Origin: Nitrososphaerota archaeon
Lineage (GTDB): Archaea > Thermoproteota > Nitrososphaeria_A > Caldarchaeales > Caldarchaeaceae
DNA: 64,000 bases
Direction: 5' to 3'
Assembly: GCA_041641305.1 (NCBI GenBank)
Contig: JBEPYN010000002.1
Span: 466,009 to 530,008 of the forward strand
In this document: piece after piece, positions 53,513-55,432 of the stretch
Layout: each line of letters opens with the position of its first letter
Numbering within the stretch: the first letter of the stretch is position 1
Translations under genes and position numbers: made by a program
The notes under the pieces: model-generated
Database searches by the model: none
Told to the model about the DNA's origin: nothing
Seen by the model: only the letters and a program-made list of their open reading frames with translations

Positions 53513-55432
53513 ATGGTGGCCGGTCTGAAAAAACTTTCATGCTACAACAAACCCCTGAACTTTCCCGAGAATAATTTTGACCACGAATGGTGGAAAAAAA
53601 TTTTCAACGAGTACTACCTTGTTACAGATGGGGACGTTGTCTGCAACCAAGAATTGACCAAATACGAGGTCGACCTCATAGTCAAGCTTCTCGACCTCGA
53701 TAAAACCGATGCGGTGCTAGACCTTTGCTGCGGCAACGGCAGACACGCAATAGAGCTCGCTAGAAGAGGTTACAGGGATATACATGGGCTCGACTACTCC
53801 AGGTTTCTGTTAAACGTTGCCAGAAATTCAGCTAGACAAGAGGGGCTGAAAATAGACTTCAGATGGGGGGATGCAAGGAGCTTGCCCTTCGCGGATAATT
53901 CATTCGATGCAGTTATTTTAATGGGAAACAGCTTCGGATACTTCGCTGAAATAGATGATGACCTGAGAGTCCTAAGAGAAGTGAGACGTGTCCTAAGACC
54001 TTATGGCAGAATCCTCATCGACGTTGTAGATAGAGAACAGTTCTTAAAACATTTGGAGCCAATCAGCAGTGAAAAAAATGGAGATGTTCAAATAATTAGA
54101 CTGCGGAGGGTCATCGGTCGAAACAGATTGGTGACGCGTGAAATTGTTATCAGGGAAAACACGGAGGTATTAACCGACCATGTCTATGGCGTTAGACTAT
54201 ACAGCTTCTCAGAACTCAAATGCATGCTGGAGCAGGCAGAGTTCGCAAATGTGACTCTCAAAGCCAGTATCTCATACAATCCTGAAGGAAAGGACCCTGG
54301 AATGCTCAAAACTAGGATGGTCGTTACAGCATTATCTTCGAAGGAGAACATCGTTACAGCCCACAAGCCGCTCATAGCGGTGCTCATCGGTGATCCAAGT
54401 AGACGCAATCCTGTTAAGCCTGGTGCAGTATTAGATGAAGATGATGTCTATGCGGTTAACGAGTTAAAATCAGCTCTCATAGGTATAAGAAAGTATCAAT
54501 TCTGTTTCCTCGATAACCACGACTCATTTCTAGAATACTTGAAGGCAAACAAGAACTCAATTCATATCGTCCTCAACTTATGTGATGACGGATTTCACAA
54601 CGACCCGCATATGGAGGGGCATGTTCCAGCTTTGTTAGAGATGCTAGGGCTGCGGTATACTGGTGCTGGGCCAAGATGCCTATTCCTATGCTATGACAAA
54701 GCAGCCGTCAATGCGATCGCAGAATCAATGAGCATCCCTGTACCAGAGTATGTGCTAATTAACAACCAGGATGAACTGAACATAATACCTAGACGAATTT
54801 ATCCCGCTATAGTGAAGCCTAACTTCGCAGATAACAGCTGGGGAATAACTGCGAAAAGTATTGTTCGGGACAGAACCGAGTTGGAATCTGCAATTCATCA
54901 ATTGAAGATTGAATGGGGCTACCATGGCCCAGTATTGGTGCAACACTATGTTGAAGGAAAAGATCTGACAACCGCTTTAATAGGAAATCCGCCAGATTTC
55001 ATTGTGCTACCGATTCTGACAGAAGATTATTCTTGTTTACCTGACGGGCTTCCGAGAATTCTGACCTATGATGCAAAGTGGGTTCCAGACTCTCCATATG
55101 GTTGTGTACAGTCGGTACCGGCTACACTTAATTCCGATATAAGACACAGGCTAGTCAACTGGAGCAAAGAGCTGTTCATAAGGCTGGAGTGCAGAGATTA
55201 TGCGAGATTTGATTGGAGATTGGGATATGATGGTACTCCATGGCTGTTAGAGGCTAACCCAAATCCTGGATGGGTCTGGGATGGTCATCTCAGAAAGGCA
55301 TGCAATTATATGGGATGGAGTTACAAGAAGATGTTTCAAGCCATCATTGAGGCGACTGAGAAACGTTATAGAACGGCCAACTCCAAACAACACATTAGTA
55401 TTCATCCTCAAAAGATTGAAGCCATACACTGA
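53513..55432 (+). CDS. fusion protein: N-terminal class I SAM-dependent methyltransferase + C-terminal D-Ala-D-Ala-ligase-like ATP-grasp enzyme
   Basis: Residues 1-200: VLDLCCGNGRHAIELA (motif I), DFRWGDARSLPF and FDAVILMGNSFGY (Methyltransf_11). Residues 280-620: a Ddl-like pre-ATP-grasp region (PLIAVLIGDPS...HIVLNLCDDGF...GLRYTGAG), then ATP-grasp YPAIVKPNFADNSWGI...VLVQHYVEGKDLTTALIG...RFDWRLGYDGTPWLLEANPNPG. TATA-like TTAATATA at 53465. Confidence 0.8.
   Translation: MVAGLKKLSCYNKPLNFPENNFDHEWWKKIFNEYYLVTDGDVVCNQELTKYEVDLIVKLLDLDKTDAVLDLCCGNGRHAIELARRGYRDIHGLDYSRFLLNVARNSARQEGLKIDFRWGDARSLPFADNSFDAVILMGNSFGYFAEIDDDLRVLREVRRVLRPYGRILIDVVDREQFLKHLEPISSEKNGDVQIIRLRRVIGRNRLVTREIVIRENTEVLTDHVYGVRLYSFSELKCMLEQAEFANVTLKASISYNPEGKDPGMLKTRMVVTALSSKENIVTAHKPLIAVLIGDPSRRNPVKPGAVLDEDDVYAVNELKSALIGIRKYQFCFLDNHDSFLEYLKANKNSIHIVLNLCDDGFHNDPHMEGHVPALLEMLGLRYTGAGPRCLFLCYDKAAVNAIAESMSIPVPEYVLINNQDELNIIPRRIYPAIVKPNFADNSWGITAKSIVRDRTELESAIHQLKIEWGYHGPVLVQHYVEGKDLTTALIGNPPDFIVLPILTEDYSCLPDGLPRILTYDAKWVPDSPYGCVQSVPATLNSDIRHRLVNWSKELFIRLECRDYARFDWRLGYDGTPWLLEANPNPGWVWDGHLRKACNYMGWSYKKMFQAIIEATEKRYRTANSKQHISIHPQKIEAIH

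What the first reader, a model, noticed from the sequence alone, without database searches (positions are those of the whole stretch)
53513..55432. Unusual fusion of a SAM methyltransferase to a complete D-Ala-D-Ala-ligase-like ATP-grasp enzyme, in an AT-rich island
One 639-aa ORF joins a class I SAM-MTase domain (VLDLCCGNGRHAIELA...) to a full Ddl-type ligase module. The ligase part has a pre-ATP-grasp region, an ATP-grasp region and a C-terminal catalytic region (YPAIVKPNF..., LLEANPNPG). I know of no characterised MTase-ATP-grasp fusion of this kind. An ATP-dependent carboxylate-amine ligation coupled to a methylation suggests a tailoring or biosynthetic enzyme for a small molecule, a peptide or a cell-wall-like precursor. 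The gene has clearly different codon usage from its neighbours, sits behind a 340-bp AT-rich spacer with its own TATA-like box, and lies in a segment bracketed by duplicated sequence. All of this argues for recent acquisition.
Basis: partly seen in the sequence, partly recalled or inferred. Interest (0 to 1): 0.78.

Follow-up and report, generated by a model that had tools for sequence, protein, structure and literature searches.

The report
Recently inserted methyltransferase–ligase fusion gene
The gene is real and intact: it fuses an N-methyltransferase to a D-Ala-D-Ala-ligase-like enzyme, belongs to a very widespread but never-studied enzyme family that probably joins two small molecules and methylates the product, and entered this archaeal genome recently beside a jumping-gene element.

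Summary
The 639-aa ORF at 53513-55432 is intact and is a true fusion. An NmbA-like class I SAM N-methyltransferase (residues ~25-283) is joined to a complete three-subdomain Ddl-fold ATP-grasp ligase (~284-625). The fusion is not rare. At least 595 species genomes carry it as one gene, across Asgard archaea, Nitrososphaerota, methanogens and more than 20 bacterial phyla. It has only generic names, and I found no paper on it. The ATP/Mg2+ catalytic residues are invariant, but every D-Ala-specifying residue of Ddl is replaced, so it is not a D-Ala-D-Ala ligase. It has no conserved partner genes. My best reading is a self-contained "ligate and N-methylate" enzyme that makes an N-methylated aminoacyl amide; the substrates and the role are unknown. 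The "recent acquisition" idea is strongly supported. Three congeneric genomes have S26e and PGDH 71-75 bp apart, whereas this genome has a 3.6-kb low-GC insertion there. The "bracketing duplication" claim is wrong: both repeat copies lie upstream and belong to a multi-copy element. That element's unannotated 282-aa protein is structurally IS110/TasR-like, and it carries a conserved, covarying downstream RNA hairpin.

The parts
53513..55432 (+). Intact 639-aa MTase-ligase fusion ORF (the finding).
   Evidence: ORF listing. Pfam and NCBIfam domains. A 100% identical protein, P0001, is recorded from a Ca. Caldarchaeum sp. MAG. AF2 pLDDT 87.8. An independent Logan assembly is identical over 10,283 nt from position 53149.
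53513..54361 (+). N-terminal half (aa 1-283): class I SAM methyltransferase with a beta-strand cap, NmbA-like.
   Evidence: Methyltransf_25 at 68-165. The best solved relative is 9RI2 = NmbA: E=9.2e-23 for the single sequence and E=1.2e-31 for the family profile, aligned over chain residues 14-242. The identity and function of 9RI2 come from PMC12719100.
54362..55432 (+). C-terminal half (aa 284-639): complete Ddl-fold ATP-grasp ligase with altered substrate sites.
   Evidence: Foldseek to Ddl structures gives TM 0.8. The alignment to E. coli DdlB shows the ATP/Mg residues invariant and the D-Ala residues replaced. Ddl models score 104-107 bits against cutoffs of 243-246.
53333..53512 (+). AT-rich (GC 0.367) upstream region of the gene, with a TATA-like TTAATATA at 53465-53472 (-48 from the ATG). 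Putative own promoter.
   Evidence: Composition and motif scan. Homology between copies of the neighbouring repeat element ends at about 53323-53332. Promoter function is inferred, not shown.
51830..55460 (.). Lineage-specific insertion of about 3.6 kb (GC 0.438) in the ancestral S26e-PGDH intergenic region. The boundaries are approximate.
   Evidence: In L087, L088 and L089 the S26e and PGDH genes are 71-75 bp apart in otherwise identical synteny. DNA homology to L087 ends at window 51792 and resumes in PGDH.
52324..53172 (+). 282-aa ORF of a multi-copy element: a structurally IS110-recombinase/TasR-like protein with no sequence-level annotation.
53125..53310 (+). Conserved structured RNA or DNA hairpin at the 3' end of the repeat element. 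It overlaps the last ~12 codons of the 282-aa ORF.
   Evidence: MFE -86.7 kcal/mol, z=-4.8. Conserved at other copies. 11 of 29 consensus pairs show double-sided compensatory changes in 26 copies.
51896..52156 (-). 86-aa Cys-rich ORF at the left of the insertion, partly inside the repeated unit.
   Evidence: ORF listing. No family hit. Positions 52021-52127 are repeated at 48709-48815.
48709..49006 (+). Degraded partial copy of the left part of the repeat unit, including a truncated 52-aa N-terminal fragment of the 282-aa ORF at 48892-49050.
   Evidence: Direct repeats D1, D2 and D5. ORF 48892..49050. blastn.
51505..51798 (-). Ribosomal protein S26e gene: the native left flank of the insertion.
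   Evidence: ORF. Ribosomal_S26e is at the equivalent position in L087-L089. DNA homology.
55490..56431 (+). D-3-phosphoglycerate-dehydrogenase-like 2-hydroxyacid dehydrogenase: the native right flank, not a partner of the ligase.
   Evidence: 2-Hacid_dh domains and TIGR01327 PGDH at 374 bits. Congeneric orthologues at 74-82% identity sit directly beside S26e.

Best explanation
The gene encodes a self-contained bifunctional small-molecule enzyme.

- Ligase half. It has the Ddl fold and the full ATP-grasp catalytic machinery. It most likely activates the carboxylate of an amino-acid-like substrate as an acyl-phosphate and couples it to an amine, giving an amide (a dipeptide or pseudo-dipeptide). 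Its substrate pockets are rebuilt relative to Ddl, so the substrates are not D-Ala + D-Ala.
- Methyltransferase half. It is homologous along its whole length to NmbA, which N-methylates the free cysteinyl alpha-amine of bacillithiol. It most likely N-methylates a free amine of the ligase's substrate or product.
- Net reaction: an N-methylated aminoacyl amide made from common metabolites by one polypeptide. This follows the logic of Ngg, which N-caps and ligates to make a dipeptide osmolyte.

Shown: the architecture, the fold, the retained catalytic residues, the loss of the D-Ala residues, the obligate fusion, and the lack of partner genes.
Inferred: N-directed methylation, coupling of the two reactions, and the nature of the substrates.

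A physiological role as a compatible solute or ion-homeostasis metabolite is only weakly suggested (about 0.2).

In this genome the gene is a recent arrival. It sits at the right edge of a 3.6-kb low-GC insertion whose left part is an IS110/TasR-like repeat element.
For: Architecture and integrity.

Catalytic competence. The DdlB equivalents K97, K144, S151, K215, R255, D257, E270, N272 and G276 are invariant in 17 diverse members. They are among the invariant columns of a 90-sequence alignment.

Not a D-Ala-D-Ala ligase:
- E15 becomes P/R, H63 becomes C, Y216 becomes W, S281 becomes G and L282 becomes H; the last four replacements are invariant across the family.
- A 12-residue insert carries a conserved acidic F-D-x-D-D motif.
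- Ddl models score less than half their cutoffs.

The MTase half is NmbA-like:
- The family profile hits 9RI2 at E=1.2e-31, over the N-terminal WW..F..YL motif, the Rossmann core and the cap strands.
- 9RI2 is the bacillithiol N-methyltransferase. Its nearest structural relatives include CypM, a peptide N-terminal alpha-amine methyltransferase.

One functional unit:
- Both halves are conserved at about 44-49% identity across domains of life, and always as a single ORF.

Self-contained:
- No conserved neighbour appears in 79 loci. The largest non-self cluster occurs in 9 loci and is a generic sensor kinase.
- Among 137 immediate neighbours the top Pfam family occurs only 4 times.

Amino-acid/amide chemistry:
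- Stand-alone relatives keep all the family motifs, and one sits in a murD-ftsW-murG cluster.
- The ligase module also occurs fused to a prolyl-oligopeptidase.
- AstE/AspA-type amidohydrolases are adjacent in four different phyla.

Weak role hints:
- MscS channels lie immediately downstream in three unrelated lineages.
- CorA is adjacent in four lineages, and CitMHS/ArsB-type permeases occur near both the fused and a stand-alone form.

Precedent: Ngg performs N-acylation plus peptide-bond formation in one protein (PMC8070244).

Recent insertion.
Against: - There is no direct evidence for any substrate.
- Class I methyltransferases of this type can be N-, O-, C- or S-directed. Identity to NmbA is only about 30%, and the NmbA authors themselves note that outlying homologues may methylate other acceptors.
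- I could not inspect the model coordinates, so the relative position of the two active sites is unknown.
- Every neighbour association is rare (5% of loci or less each) and has no background statistics.
- Fusion alone does not prove that the two reactions act on the same molecule.
- The acidic/aromatic character of the ligase pocket is read from conserved residues, not from a docked structure.
Confidence: 0.5

Rival explanations
1. It is a genuine D-alanine-D-alanine (or D-Ala-D-X) ligase that happens to carry a methyltransferase domain, as JGI and NCBI name some members.
For: Ddl models and Ddl structures are the best ligase matches. Some sources name members 'D-alanine-D-alanine ligase'. 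One stand-alone relative lies in a murD-ftsW-murG cluster.
Against: The D-Ala1 and D-Ala2 binding residues (E15, H63, Y216, S281, L282) are all replaced, and four of the five replacements are invariant across the family. Scores are 104-107 bits against cutoffs of 243-246. The host and many other carriers are archaea without murein, and the gene never sits in a cell-wall cluster in the 79 fused loci.
Confidence: 0.03
2. It makes an N-methylated low-molecular-weight thiol. The ATP-grasp half would ligate cysteine to an amine acceptor (the functional analogue of BshC/MshC or of the GshF ATP-grasp domain), and the NmbA-like half would N-methylate the cysteinyl amine.
For: The closest characterised relative of the MTase half methylates the Cys amine of bacillithiol. 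ATP-grasp ligases build glutathione-type thiols (own knowledge: GshB, GshF). Tryptophan and tyrosine are conserved in the acceptor region (W523, W587, W589, Y506, Y529, Y563). There are faint Ser/Cys-metabolism neighbours: PALP genes near the Calditenuaceae orthologues and NifS-like genes near Asgard ones.
Against: No BshA/BshB-like or other thiol-pathway genes are linked. The Ser/Cys neighbours in the window (PGDH, SerK-like) predate the insertion. The NifS cases are mostly one Asgard synteny block. Nothing in the sequence specifies cysteine.
Confidence: 0.1
3. It modifies a peptide or protein. The ATP-grasp half would add an amino acid to, or cross-link, a polypeptide (RimK- or graspetide-like), and the MTase half would methylate an N-terminal amine (CypM-like).
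For: CypM, a peptide N-terminal methyltransferase, is among the structural and sequence relatives of the MTase half. A daptide RiPP methyltransferase model gives a weak hit. RimK-type ligases do act on proteins (own knowledge). The absence of pathway neighbours is compatible with a housekeeping protein target.
Against: No precursor-peptide, protease or transporter genes are conserved nearby. The ligase is Ddl-type, a small-molecule dipeptide ligase fold with a closed three-subdomain architecture, rather than RimK or graspetide type. Conservation at 45% identity across archaea and bacteria would require a universally conserved target.
Confidence: 0.15
4. The two domains work independently and the fusion is merely a co-expression device, or the gene is a decaying passenger of the insertion with no function in this host.
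For: The gene is newly inserted and compositionally foreign. Stand-alone forms of both halves exist: NmbA-type methyltransferases and P0368, P0371 and P0377 ligases.
Against: The ORF is intact, all family-invariant residues are present, and the model is confident with pTM 0.87, which implies a defined inter-domain arrangement. The fusion is maintained without a single split among 79 loci across more than 20 phyla.
Confidence: 0.07

Closest known systems
D-alanine-D-alanine ligase / VanA family (Ddl, EC 6.3.2.4; ATP-grasp)
   Same: It shares the three-subdomain fold (Foldseek TM 0.8 to 3r5x, 5bph and 2dln). The ATP- and Mg2+-binding and transition-state residues (K97, K144, S151, K215, R255, D257, E270, N272) are conserved. 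It presumably uses the same acyl-phosphate mechanism.
   Different: The residues that bind D-Ala1 and D-Ala2 are replaced: E15, H63, Y216, S281 and L282 become P/R, C, W, G and H. It carries an extra acidic FDxDD insert. It falls far below the curated cutoffs, is fused to a methyltransferase, and is found in murein-less archaea.
NmbA, N-methyl-bacillithiol synthase (PDB 9RI2; Hammerstad et al. 2025, PMC12719100)
   Same: It is the best solved relative of the MTase half over nearly its full length, including the N-terminal strands and the beta-strand cap (E=1.2e-31). Both are class I SAM methyltransferases. NmbA methylates a free alpha-amine of an aminoacyl moiety on a small molecule.
   Different: Identity is only about 30%. 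NmbA is a stand-alone 266-aa protein that co-occurs with BshA/B/C, and the paper found no archaeon with that pathway. The family here has its own invariant motifs (YLxTDxDVV, GNSFGYF) and is fused to a ligase.
Ngg, the bifunctional N-acetylglutaminylglutamine synthetase of the NAGGN osmolyte pathway
   Same: One polypeptide both caps the N-terminus of an amino acid and forms a peptide bond to a second one, yielding an N-capped dipeptide (PMC8070244, citing Sagot et al. 2010). This is the same 'cap + ligate' logic.
   Different: The cap is an acetyl group from a GNAT domain, not a methyl group from a SAM methyltransferase. Ngg works with an adjacent asnO gene, whereas no partner gene is conserved here. 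That Ngg's ligase part is an ATP-grasp domain is from my own memory; the primary paper was not available.
GshF (gamma-glutamylcysteine ligase fused to a Ddl-like ATP-grasp glutathione synthetase) and PylC (Ddl-like ligase of pyrrolysine synthesis)
   Same: These are precedents, from my own knowledge, for Ddl-like ATP-grasp modules recruited to small-molecule amide synthesis outside the cell wall. In GshF the module is part of a two-step fusion enzyme.
   Different: The fusion partners and substrates differ. Neither appeared among the best sequence matches, and neither includes a methyltransferase.

Membership tests
[quoted passage not shown] | Three-subdomain ATP-grasp fold of Ddl | tested here: met
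   Foldseek hits to many Ddl chains, E about 1e-20, TM 0.78-0.84 normalised to target. NCBIfam Ddl models align over 327-617.
[quoted passage not shown] | ATP/Mg2+ and phosphoryl-transfer residues (DdlB K97, K144, S151, K215, R255, D257, E270, N272) | tested here: met
   All are invariant in 17 members aligned to the verified E. coli DdlB sequence.
[quoted passage not shown] | D-Ala1 site: the E15-S150-Y216 triad, plus H63 | tested here: not met
   E15 becomes R in the window and P in most members. Y216 becomes W (invariant) and H63 becomes C (invariant). S150 is N, S or A.
[quoted passage not shown] | D-Ala2 carboxylate site S281/L282 | tested here: not met
   The positions are G591 and H592, both invariant, within the motif NPNPGWxWDGH.
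[quoted passage not shown] | Score at or above the curated family cutoff | tested here: not met
   NF002378 scores 107.4 against 243. TIGR01205 scores 104.3 against 245.65. All Van models score 50-73 bits against cutoffs of 495-775.
[quoted passage not shown] | Cell-wall (dcw/van) genomic context | tested here: not met
   None of the 79 fused loci shows such a context. The adjacent 2-hydroxyacid dehydrogenase is the native PGDH, not VanH. Only one stand-alone relative lies next to murD-ftsW-murG.
NmbA-type N-directed natural-product methyltransferase | Class I SAM-MTase core with motif I (xLDxxCGxG) and acidic residues at the ends of beta2 and beta3 | tested here: met
   The core includes VLDLCCGNGRH, D94 and D120. 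Methyltransf_25/11/31 are matched and these positions are invariant columns.
NmbA-type N-directed natural-product methyltransferase | N-terminal strands plus a four-beta-strand cap homologous to NmbA | tested here: met
   The profile alignment covers 9RI2 residues 14-242, including the cap segments. The AF2 model predicts beta-strands at 184-275. The exact cap topology was not compared.
NmbA-type N-directed natural-product methyltransferase | Co-occurrence with the bacillithiol pathway (BshA, BshB, BshC) | not tested
   I ran no genome-wide search. The NmbA paper found no archaeon with the pathway, and no Bsh-like genes appear near the fused gene.
NmbA-type N-directed natural-product methyltransferase | N-methylation of a free aminoacyl alpha-amine | not testable with these tools
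   This needs an enzyme assay.
Ngg-type bifunctional N-cap + peptide ligase | One polypeptide carrying both an N-modifying domain and an amide-forming ligase domain | tested here: met
Ngg-type bifunctional N-cap + peptide ligase | A GNAT acetyltransferase domain and an adjacent asnO amidotransferase gene | tested here: not met
   No GNAT domain is present. No conserved neighbour exists.
RiPP / graspetide-type ATP-grasp systems | Linked precursor-peptide gene and tailoring or export genes | tested here: not met
   No conserved neighbours in 79 loci. Very short ORFs (under 70 aa) were not examined.
IS110-family element (for the neighbouring 282-aa ORF) | RuvC-like DEDD domain plus C-terminal Tnp domain | tested here: inconclusive
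   [not shown]
IS110-family element (for the neighbouring 282-aa ORF) | Multi-copy and mobile, with a structured non-coding RNA encoded next to the recombinase | tested here: met
   At least 4 paralogues occur in this MAG, 5 in Ca. C. subterraneum and 5 in HR02. Copies often sit at contig ends. The downstream structure is conserved with 11 covarying pairs. Transposition and RNA function were not tested.

The most novel reading that the evidence does not exclude
The family synthesises a previously unknown N-methylated metabolite that is widespread in anaerobic archaea and bacteria, including Asgard archaea, Aigarchaeota and methylotrophic methanogens. The most striking version is a new N-methylated cysteinyl low-molecular-weight thiol made by a single enzyme (the functional equivalent of BshC + NmbA). 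An alternative is a new N-methyl-dipeptide compatible solute. Either would fill a gap in the redox or osmotic physiology of lineages with no known dedicated small-molecule thiol or osmolyte pathway.
Probability: 0.12. Interest if true: 0.8.

Novelty: new variant of a known kind. Interest (0 to 1): 0.5.

Why it matters
A bifunctional enzyme is conserved at about 45% identity from Asgard archaea to Planctomycetes, always as one gene and without helper genes. It almost certainly makes a discrete product from common metabolites, yet nobody appears to have asked what that product is. The link of its methyltransferase half to NmbA, made possible only by a 2025 structure, now gives a concrete and testable chemistry: ligate, then N-methylate an aminoacyl amine. 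That makes a simple substrate screen feasible using orthologues from cultured organisms. The gene also corrects a recurring misannotation, since 'D-alanine-D-alanine ligase' is applied to it in murein-less archaea. Locally, the locus is a clean example of recent gene gain in Caldarchaeales. It also exposes an unannotated, compact IS110/TasR-like protein family with a conserved structured RNA, which is of interest for RNA-guided recombinase and nuclease biology.

Tried and rejected
- VanH-VanA analogy. The downstream 2-hydroxyacid dehydrogenase scores best as PGDH. It is the native neighbour of S26e in relatives that lack the ligase, so I rejected the idea.
- Defence-system gene. PADLOC gave only a generic MTase-domain match to mad2 at residues 52-181. 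Rejected.
- Conserved operon partners. BLAST clustering of 1062 neighbouring ORFs and a Pfam census of 137 immediate neighbours found nothing present in more than about 11% of loci.
- 'Bracketing duplication'. Both repeat copies lie upstream.
- Family-intrinsic low GC. Orthologues in five other genomes match their flanks, so the deviation is specific to this locus.
- IS110 identity of the 282-aa ORF by sequence. Pfam, PHROGs and a PDB sequence profile were all negative; only the fold comparison detected it.
- The 264-aa gene upstream of ProRS in relatives is not a copy of the 282-aa family.
- Target-site duplication at the insertion junctions. The alignment was inconclusive and shows no clear duplication.
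- Literature. Searches for an MTase-ATP-grasp fusion, for Caldarchaeum + D-alanine and for Asgard + Ddl found nothing relevant. The primary Ngg paper is not held.
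Full report

The window has one uninterrupted ORF at 53513..55432 (+) encoding 639 aa. Pfam finds a class I SAM-methyltransferase domain (Methyltransf_25, residues 68-165, E=4e-24) and Dala_Dala_lig_C (405-613, E=2.9e-20). NCBIfam Ddl models align from residue 327 to 617, so the N-terminal, central and C-terminal Ddl regions are all present.

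An AlphaFold2 model built from 90 homologues is confident (pLDDT 87.8, pTM 0.87). Its C-terminal half superposes on complete Ddl chains (Foldseek E about 4e-21, TM about 0.8 normalised to the target). A protein 100% identical to it is on record from a Candidatus Caldarchaeum sp. MAG. An independent Logan assembly of another run is identical over 10,283 nt from window position 53149 onward. The gene and its junction with the downstream gene are therefore not assembly artefacts.

**2. How unusual is the fusion?**

It is not unusual in nature. A search of 5.8 billion proteins returned 372 hits. The best 120 all carry both domains, cover about 95% of the query, and share 44-62% identity with it.

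The best 80 come from many groups:
- Archaea: Caldarchaeales and other Nitrososphaerota, Odin-, Jord- and Promethearchaeota, Methanomethylovorans, Methanococcoides and Methanolobus.
- Bacteria: Thermotogota, Atribacterota, Calditrichota, Planctomycetota (including Scalindua), Thermodesulfobacteriota, Chloroflexota, Acidobacteriota, Spirochaetota and others.

All 79 loci I parsed contain one intact fused ORF of 588-749 aa and no split genes. The sources name it only 'methyltransferase domain-containing protein' or 'D-alanine-D-alanine ligase'. No curated NCBIfam model reaches its cutoff for either half. Full-text searches found no paper that treats this architecture.

**3. The ligase half**

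I aligned 17 diverse members to E. coli DdlB. I had typed that sequence from memory, and I verified it as identical to PDB 1iov/2dln.

The residues that bind ATP and Mg2+ and stabilise phosphoryl transfer in Ddl are invariant in the family: K97, K144, S151, K215, R255, D257, E270, N272 and G276. Their roles come from established Ddl enzymology and are my own knowledge. In the window protein they are K396, K435, S442, K522, R565, D567, E580, N582 and G586.

The residues that define D-alanine binding are all replaced:
- E15 becomes R in the window and P in most members.
- H63 becomes C357.
- Y216 becomes W523.
- S281 becomes G591.
- L282 becomes H592.

The last four replacements are invariant across the family. 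A 12-residue insert after the first strand carries a conserved acidic F-D-x-D-D motif. Further invariant residues form the signatures NLCDxG, KPNxxDxSxGI, EDYSxLP...YxAKW and NPNPGWxWDGH. The enzyme should therefore be an active acyl-phosphate-forming ligase, but not a D-Ala-D-Ala ligase.

A HMMER scan of 1.84 billion representatives with this half alone gave 395 hits at E<=1e-30. They include genuine stand-alone proteins of about 340-365 aa (P0368, P0371, P0377) that keep every signature motif. They also include other fusions, for example to a prolyl-oligopeptidase and to LRR repeats. One stand-alone gene lies directly after murD-ftsW-murG. Another lies beside a CitMHS-type permease, Na+/H+ exchangers with TrkA domains and a trehalase-like gene.

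**4. The methyltransferase half**

The best solved relative is 9RI2. The single sequence gives E=9.2e-23. A profile of 21 MTase halves gives E=1.2e-31, aligned over chain residues 14-242. That span covers the N-terminal WW..F..YL motif, the Rossmann core and the cap strands.

9RI2 is NmbA of Chlorobaculum tepidum, which methylates the nitrogen of the cysteine moiety of bacillithiol. Its authors describe it as a new class of N-directed natural-product methyltransferases with a four-beta-strand cap. Among its nearest structural relatives they list CypM, which methylates a peptide's N-terminal alpha-amine (PMC12719100). They also note that outlying homologues may methylate other acceptors, and that no archaeon has the bacillithiol pathway. 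Glycine/sarcosine N-methyltransferases are more distant relatives.

From this I infer, but have not shown, that the MTase half N-methylates a free amine of an aminoacyl-type small molecule.

**5. Context across genomes**

The neighbourhoods of orthologues differ between genera:
- In Ca. C. subterraneum the gene lies among HEPN/nucleotidyltransferase toxin-antitoxin pairs.
- In Thermotoga it follows corA.
- In three Calditenuaceae-type MAGs it sits between an HTH_10 gene (or an ABC operon) and a TrmB-like regulator followed by Alba.

BLAST clustering of 1062 ORFs from 79 loci found no partner present in more than 9 loci. A Pfam census of 137 immediate neighbours gave at most 4 occurrences of any family.

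The recurrent but rare neighbours are of two kinds:
- AstE/AspA-type amidohydrolases, adjacent in TA06, Spirochaetota, Scalindua and Thermodesulfobacteriota.
- Membrane ion or solute proteins. MscS lies immediately downstream in Nitrosotalea, Acidobacteriota and an unclassified bacterium. CorA is adjacent in Thermotoga, Aminicenantes and Clostridia. CitMHS/ArsB-type permeases and MarC also recur.

These are hints, not proof, of amide metabolism and of solute or ion homeostasis. The enzyme appears to be self-sufficient.

**6. Most likely mechanism**

I think the protein couples two reactions on one small molecule. The Ddl-fold half would activate a carboxylate with ATP and condense it with an amine. 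The NmbA-like half would transfer a methyl group from SAM to a free amine of the substrate or product. The result would be an N-methylated aminoacyl amide.

The logic mirrors Ngg, a single enzyme that N-acetylates glutamine and forms the peptide bond of the osmolyte precursor N-acetylglutaminylglutamine (PMC8070244).

Shown:
- the fold;
- the catalytic residues;
- the loss of the D-Ala determinants;
- the obligate fusion;
- the absence of partner genes.

Inferred:
- N-directed methylation;
- coupling of the two reactions;
- the substrate class.

The physiological role is unknown. A compatible-solute or ion-homeostasis role is a weak guess (about 0.2), and a new N-methylated thiol is a more exciting but less likely one (about 0.1).

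**7. Is it a recent acquisition?**

Yes, on several lines of evidence.

(a) Composition. The gene has GC 0.444 and GC3 0.463, against 0.514 for the rest of the window. Orthologues in five other genomes match their own flanks within 0.03, so the bias is specific to this locus.

(b) Divergence. The adjacent PGDH gene has many congeneric orthologues at 74-82% identity. The best non-identical homologue of the fusion protein is only 62% identical.

(c) Empty site. In three congeneric genomes the order ProRS - HtpX - S26e - PGDH - SerK-like - E1 - HMGL - FAA hydrolase is the same as in the window, but S26e and PGDH are 71-75 bp apart. In the window they are 3,691 bp apart. DNA homology to L087 stops at window 51792 and resumes in PGDH. 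The inserted block, about 51.83-55.46 kb, has GC 0.438, against 0.513 and 0.537 on its two sides.

(d) Phylogeny. In a neighbour-joining tree the window protein groups with the GC-rich Calditenuaceae-type sequences (P0002-P0005) rather than with the Ca. C. subterraneum group. This suggests transfer within the order. The tree is simple and the donor is unknown.

The other low-GC stretch of the window (31-43 kb) is a glycosyltransferase/epimerase/flippase cluster. Low GC in this genome therefore marks accessory DNA in general.

**8. What the 'duplicated sequence' and the 'spacer' really are**

Both copies lie upstream of the gene.

They belong to a unit made of an 86-aa Cys-rich ORF (51896-52156, minus strand) and a 282-aa ORF (52324-53172). 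The upstream copy is a remnant with a truncated 52-aa fragment.

The 282-aa protein has no Pfam, NCBIfam, PHROG or PDB-sequence match. It does have 232 homologues, all from Caldarchaeales/Nitrososphaerota where a source is named. There are several paralogues per genome: 4 with the QXD24 locus-tag prefix of this MAG, 5 in Ca. C. subterraneum and 5 in HR02. Many copies lie at contig ends, and the independent assembly breaks inside the element.

Homology between copies extends about 150 nt past the stop codon and ends at 53323-53332. This stretch folds into a very stable structure (z=-4.8). The structure is present at all 62 copies tested. It is supported by 11 covarying pairs out of 29 in 26 copies.

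Three conclusions follow:
- About 160 bp of the '340-bp spacer' is the end of an IS110/TasR-like element with a candidate bridge or guide RNA.
- The remaining 180 bp (GC 0.367, with TTAATATA at -48) may hold the gene's promoter.
- The fusion gene starts about 180 bp beyond the element. Other copies of the element have different downstream genes, so the gene is not regular cargo of the element. How the two came to share one insertion is unresolved.

**9. Comparison with known systems and novelty**

By fold and mechanism the C-terminal half works like Ddl, but it fails the substrate-site and score criteria for membership. The N-terminal half is a homologue of NmbA, but it is not an orthologue and lacks the bacillithiol context. 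The overall logic resembles Ngg with a different cap chemistry.

I rate it as a new variant of known kinds. It is a large, uncharacterised bifunctional family rather than a one-off oddity.

Interest is moderate (0.5). The chemistry is unknown and the distribution is striking. A testable hypothesis now exists, but nothing here contradicts established principles.

Noticed in passing
[not shown]
   Followed up: partly
window 48709-49050: A degraded partial copy of that element, including a truncated 52-aa N-terminal fragment, sits between the ATP-synthase D gene and ProRS. Congeneric genomes carry an unrelated 264-aa gene there. This suggests an older insertion or deletion event at a second site.
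   Followed up: partly
window 51896-52156 (-): An 86-aa Cys-rich (zinc-ribbon-like, CxxC...CPFH) ORF lies divergent from the 282-aa ORF. It is partly inside the repeated unit and has no family match.
   Followed up: no
window 31000-43000: A second low-GC stretch (GC 0.45-0.47, GC3 0.44-0.57) encodes GT4 glycosyltransferases, NAD-epimerases/dehydratases, a polysaccharide-synthesis (flippase-like) protein, a small methyltransferase and an 860-aa fn3-containing protein. This looks like a variable surface-glycosylation island.
   Followed up: partly
window 1136-1240 (+) and 58243-58327 (-): The tRNA calls disagree. Rfam finds a 105-nt tRNA match at 1136-1240, probably intron-containing, which ARAGORN misses. 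ARAGORN calls a tRNA-Gln at 58243-58327 inside the overlap of two long conserved ORFs (E1 alpha and HMGL-like), which Rfam does not support, so it is probably a false positive.
   Followed up: no
window 56400-57260 (-): A 286-aa ORF overlapping the 3' end of PGDH has weak similarity to the archaeal ADP-dependent serine kinase SerK and to SbnI (62.5 bits against a cutoff of 380). It is conserved next to PGDH in relatives and may be a divergent ParB-like serine kinase linked to serine/phosphoserine metabolism.
   Followed up: no
L093 6001-10969: A stand-alone member of the ligase subfamily (P0377) sits directly after murD-ftsW-murG. It is followed by an unknown 458-aa gene and an 807-aa protein with two ATP-grasp modules, which may be an atypical peptidoglycan peptide pathway.
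   Followed up: no
P0478, P0367 (proteins): The same ligase module occurs fused to a prolyl-oligopeptidase (S9) in one 1210-aa protein and to leucine-rich repeats in another.
   Followed up: no
L001 6585-10727: In Ca. Caldarchaeum subterraneum the orthologous fusion gene is flanked on both sides by HEPN/nucleotidyltransferase toxin-antitoxin pairs, with a PIN/RHH pair nearby. There too it lies in a variable region.
   Followed up: no
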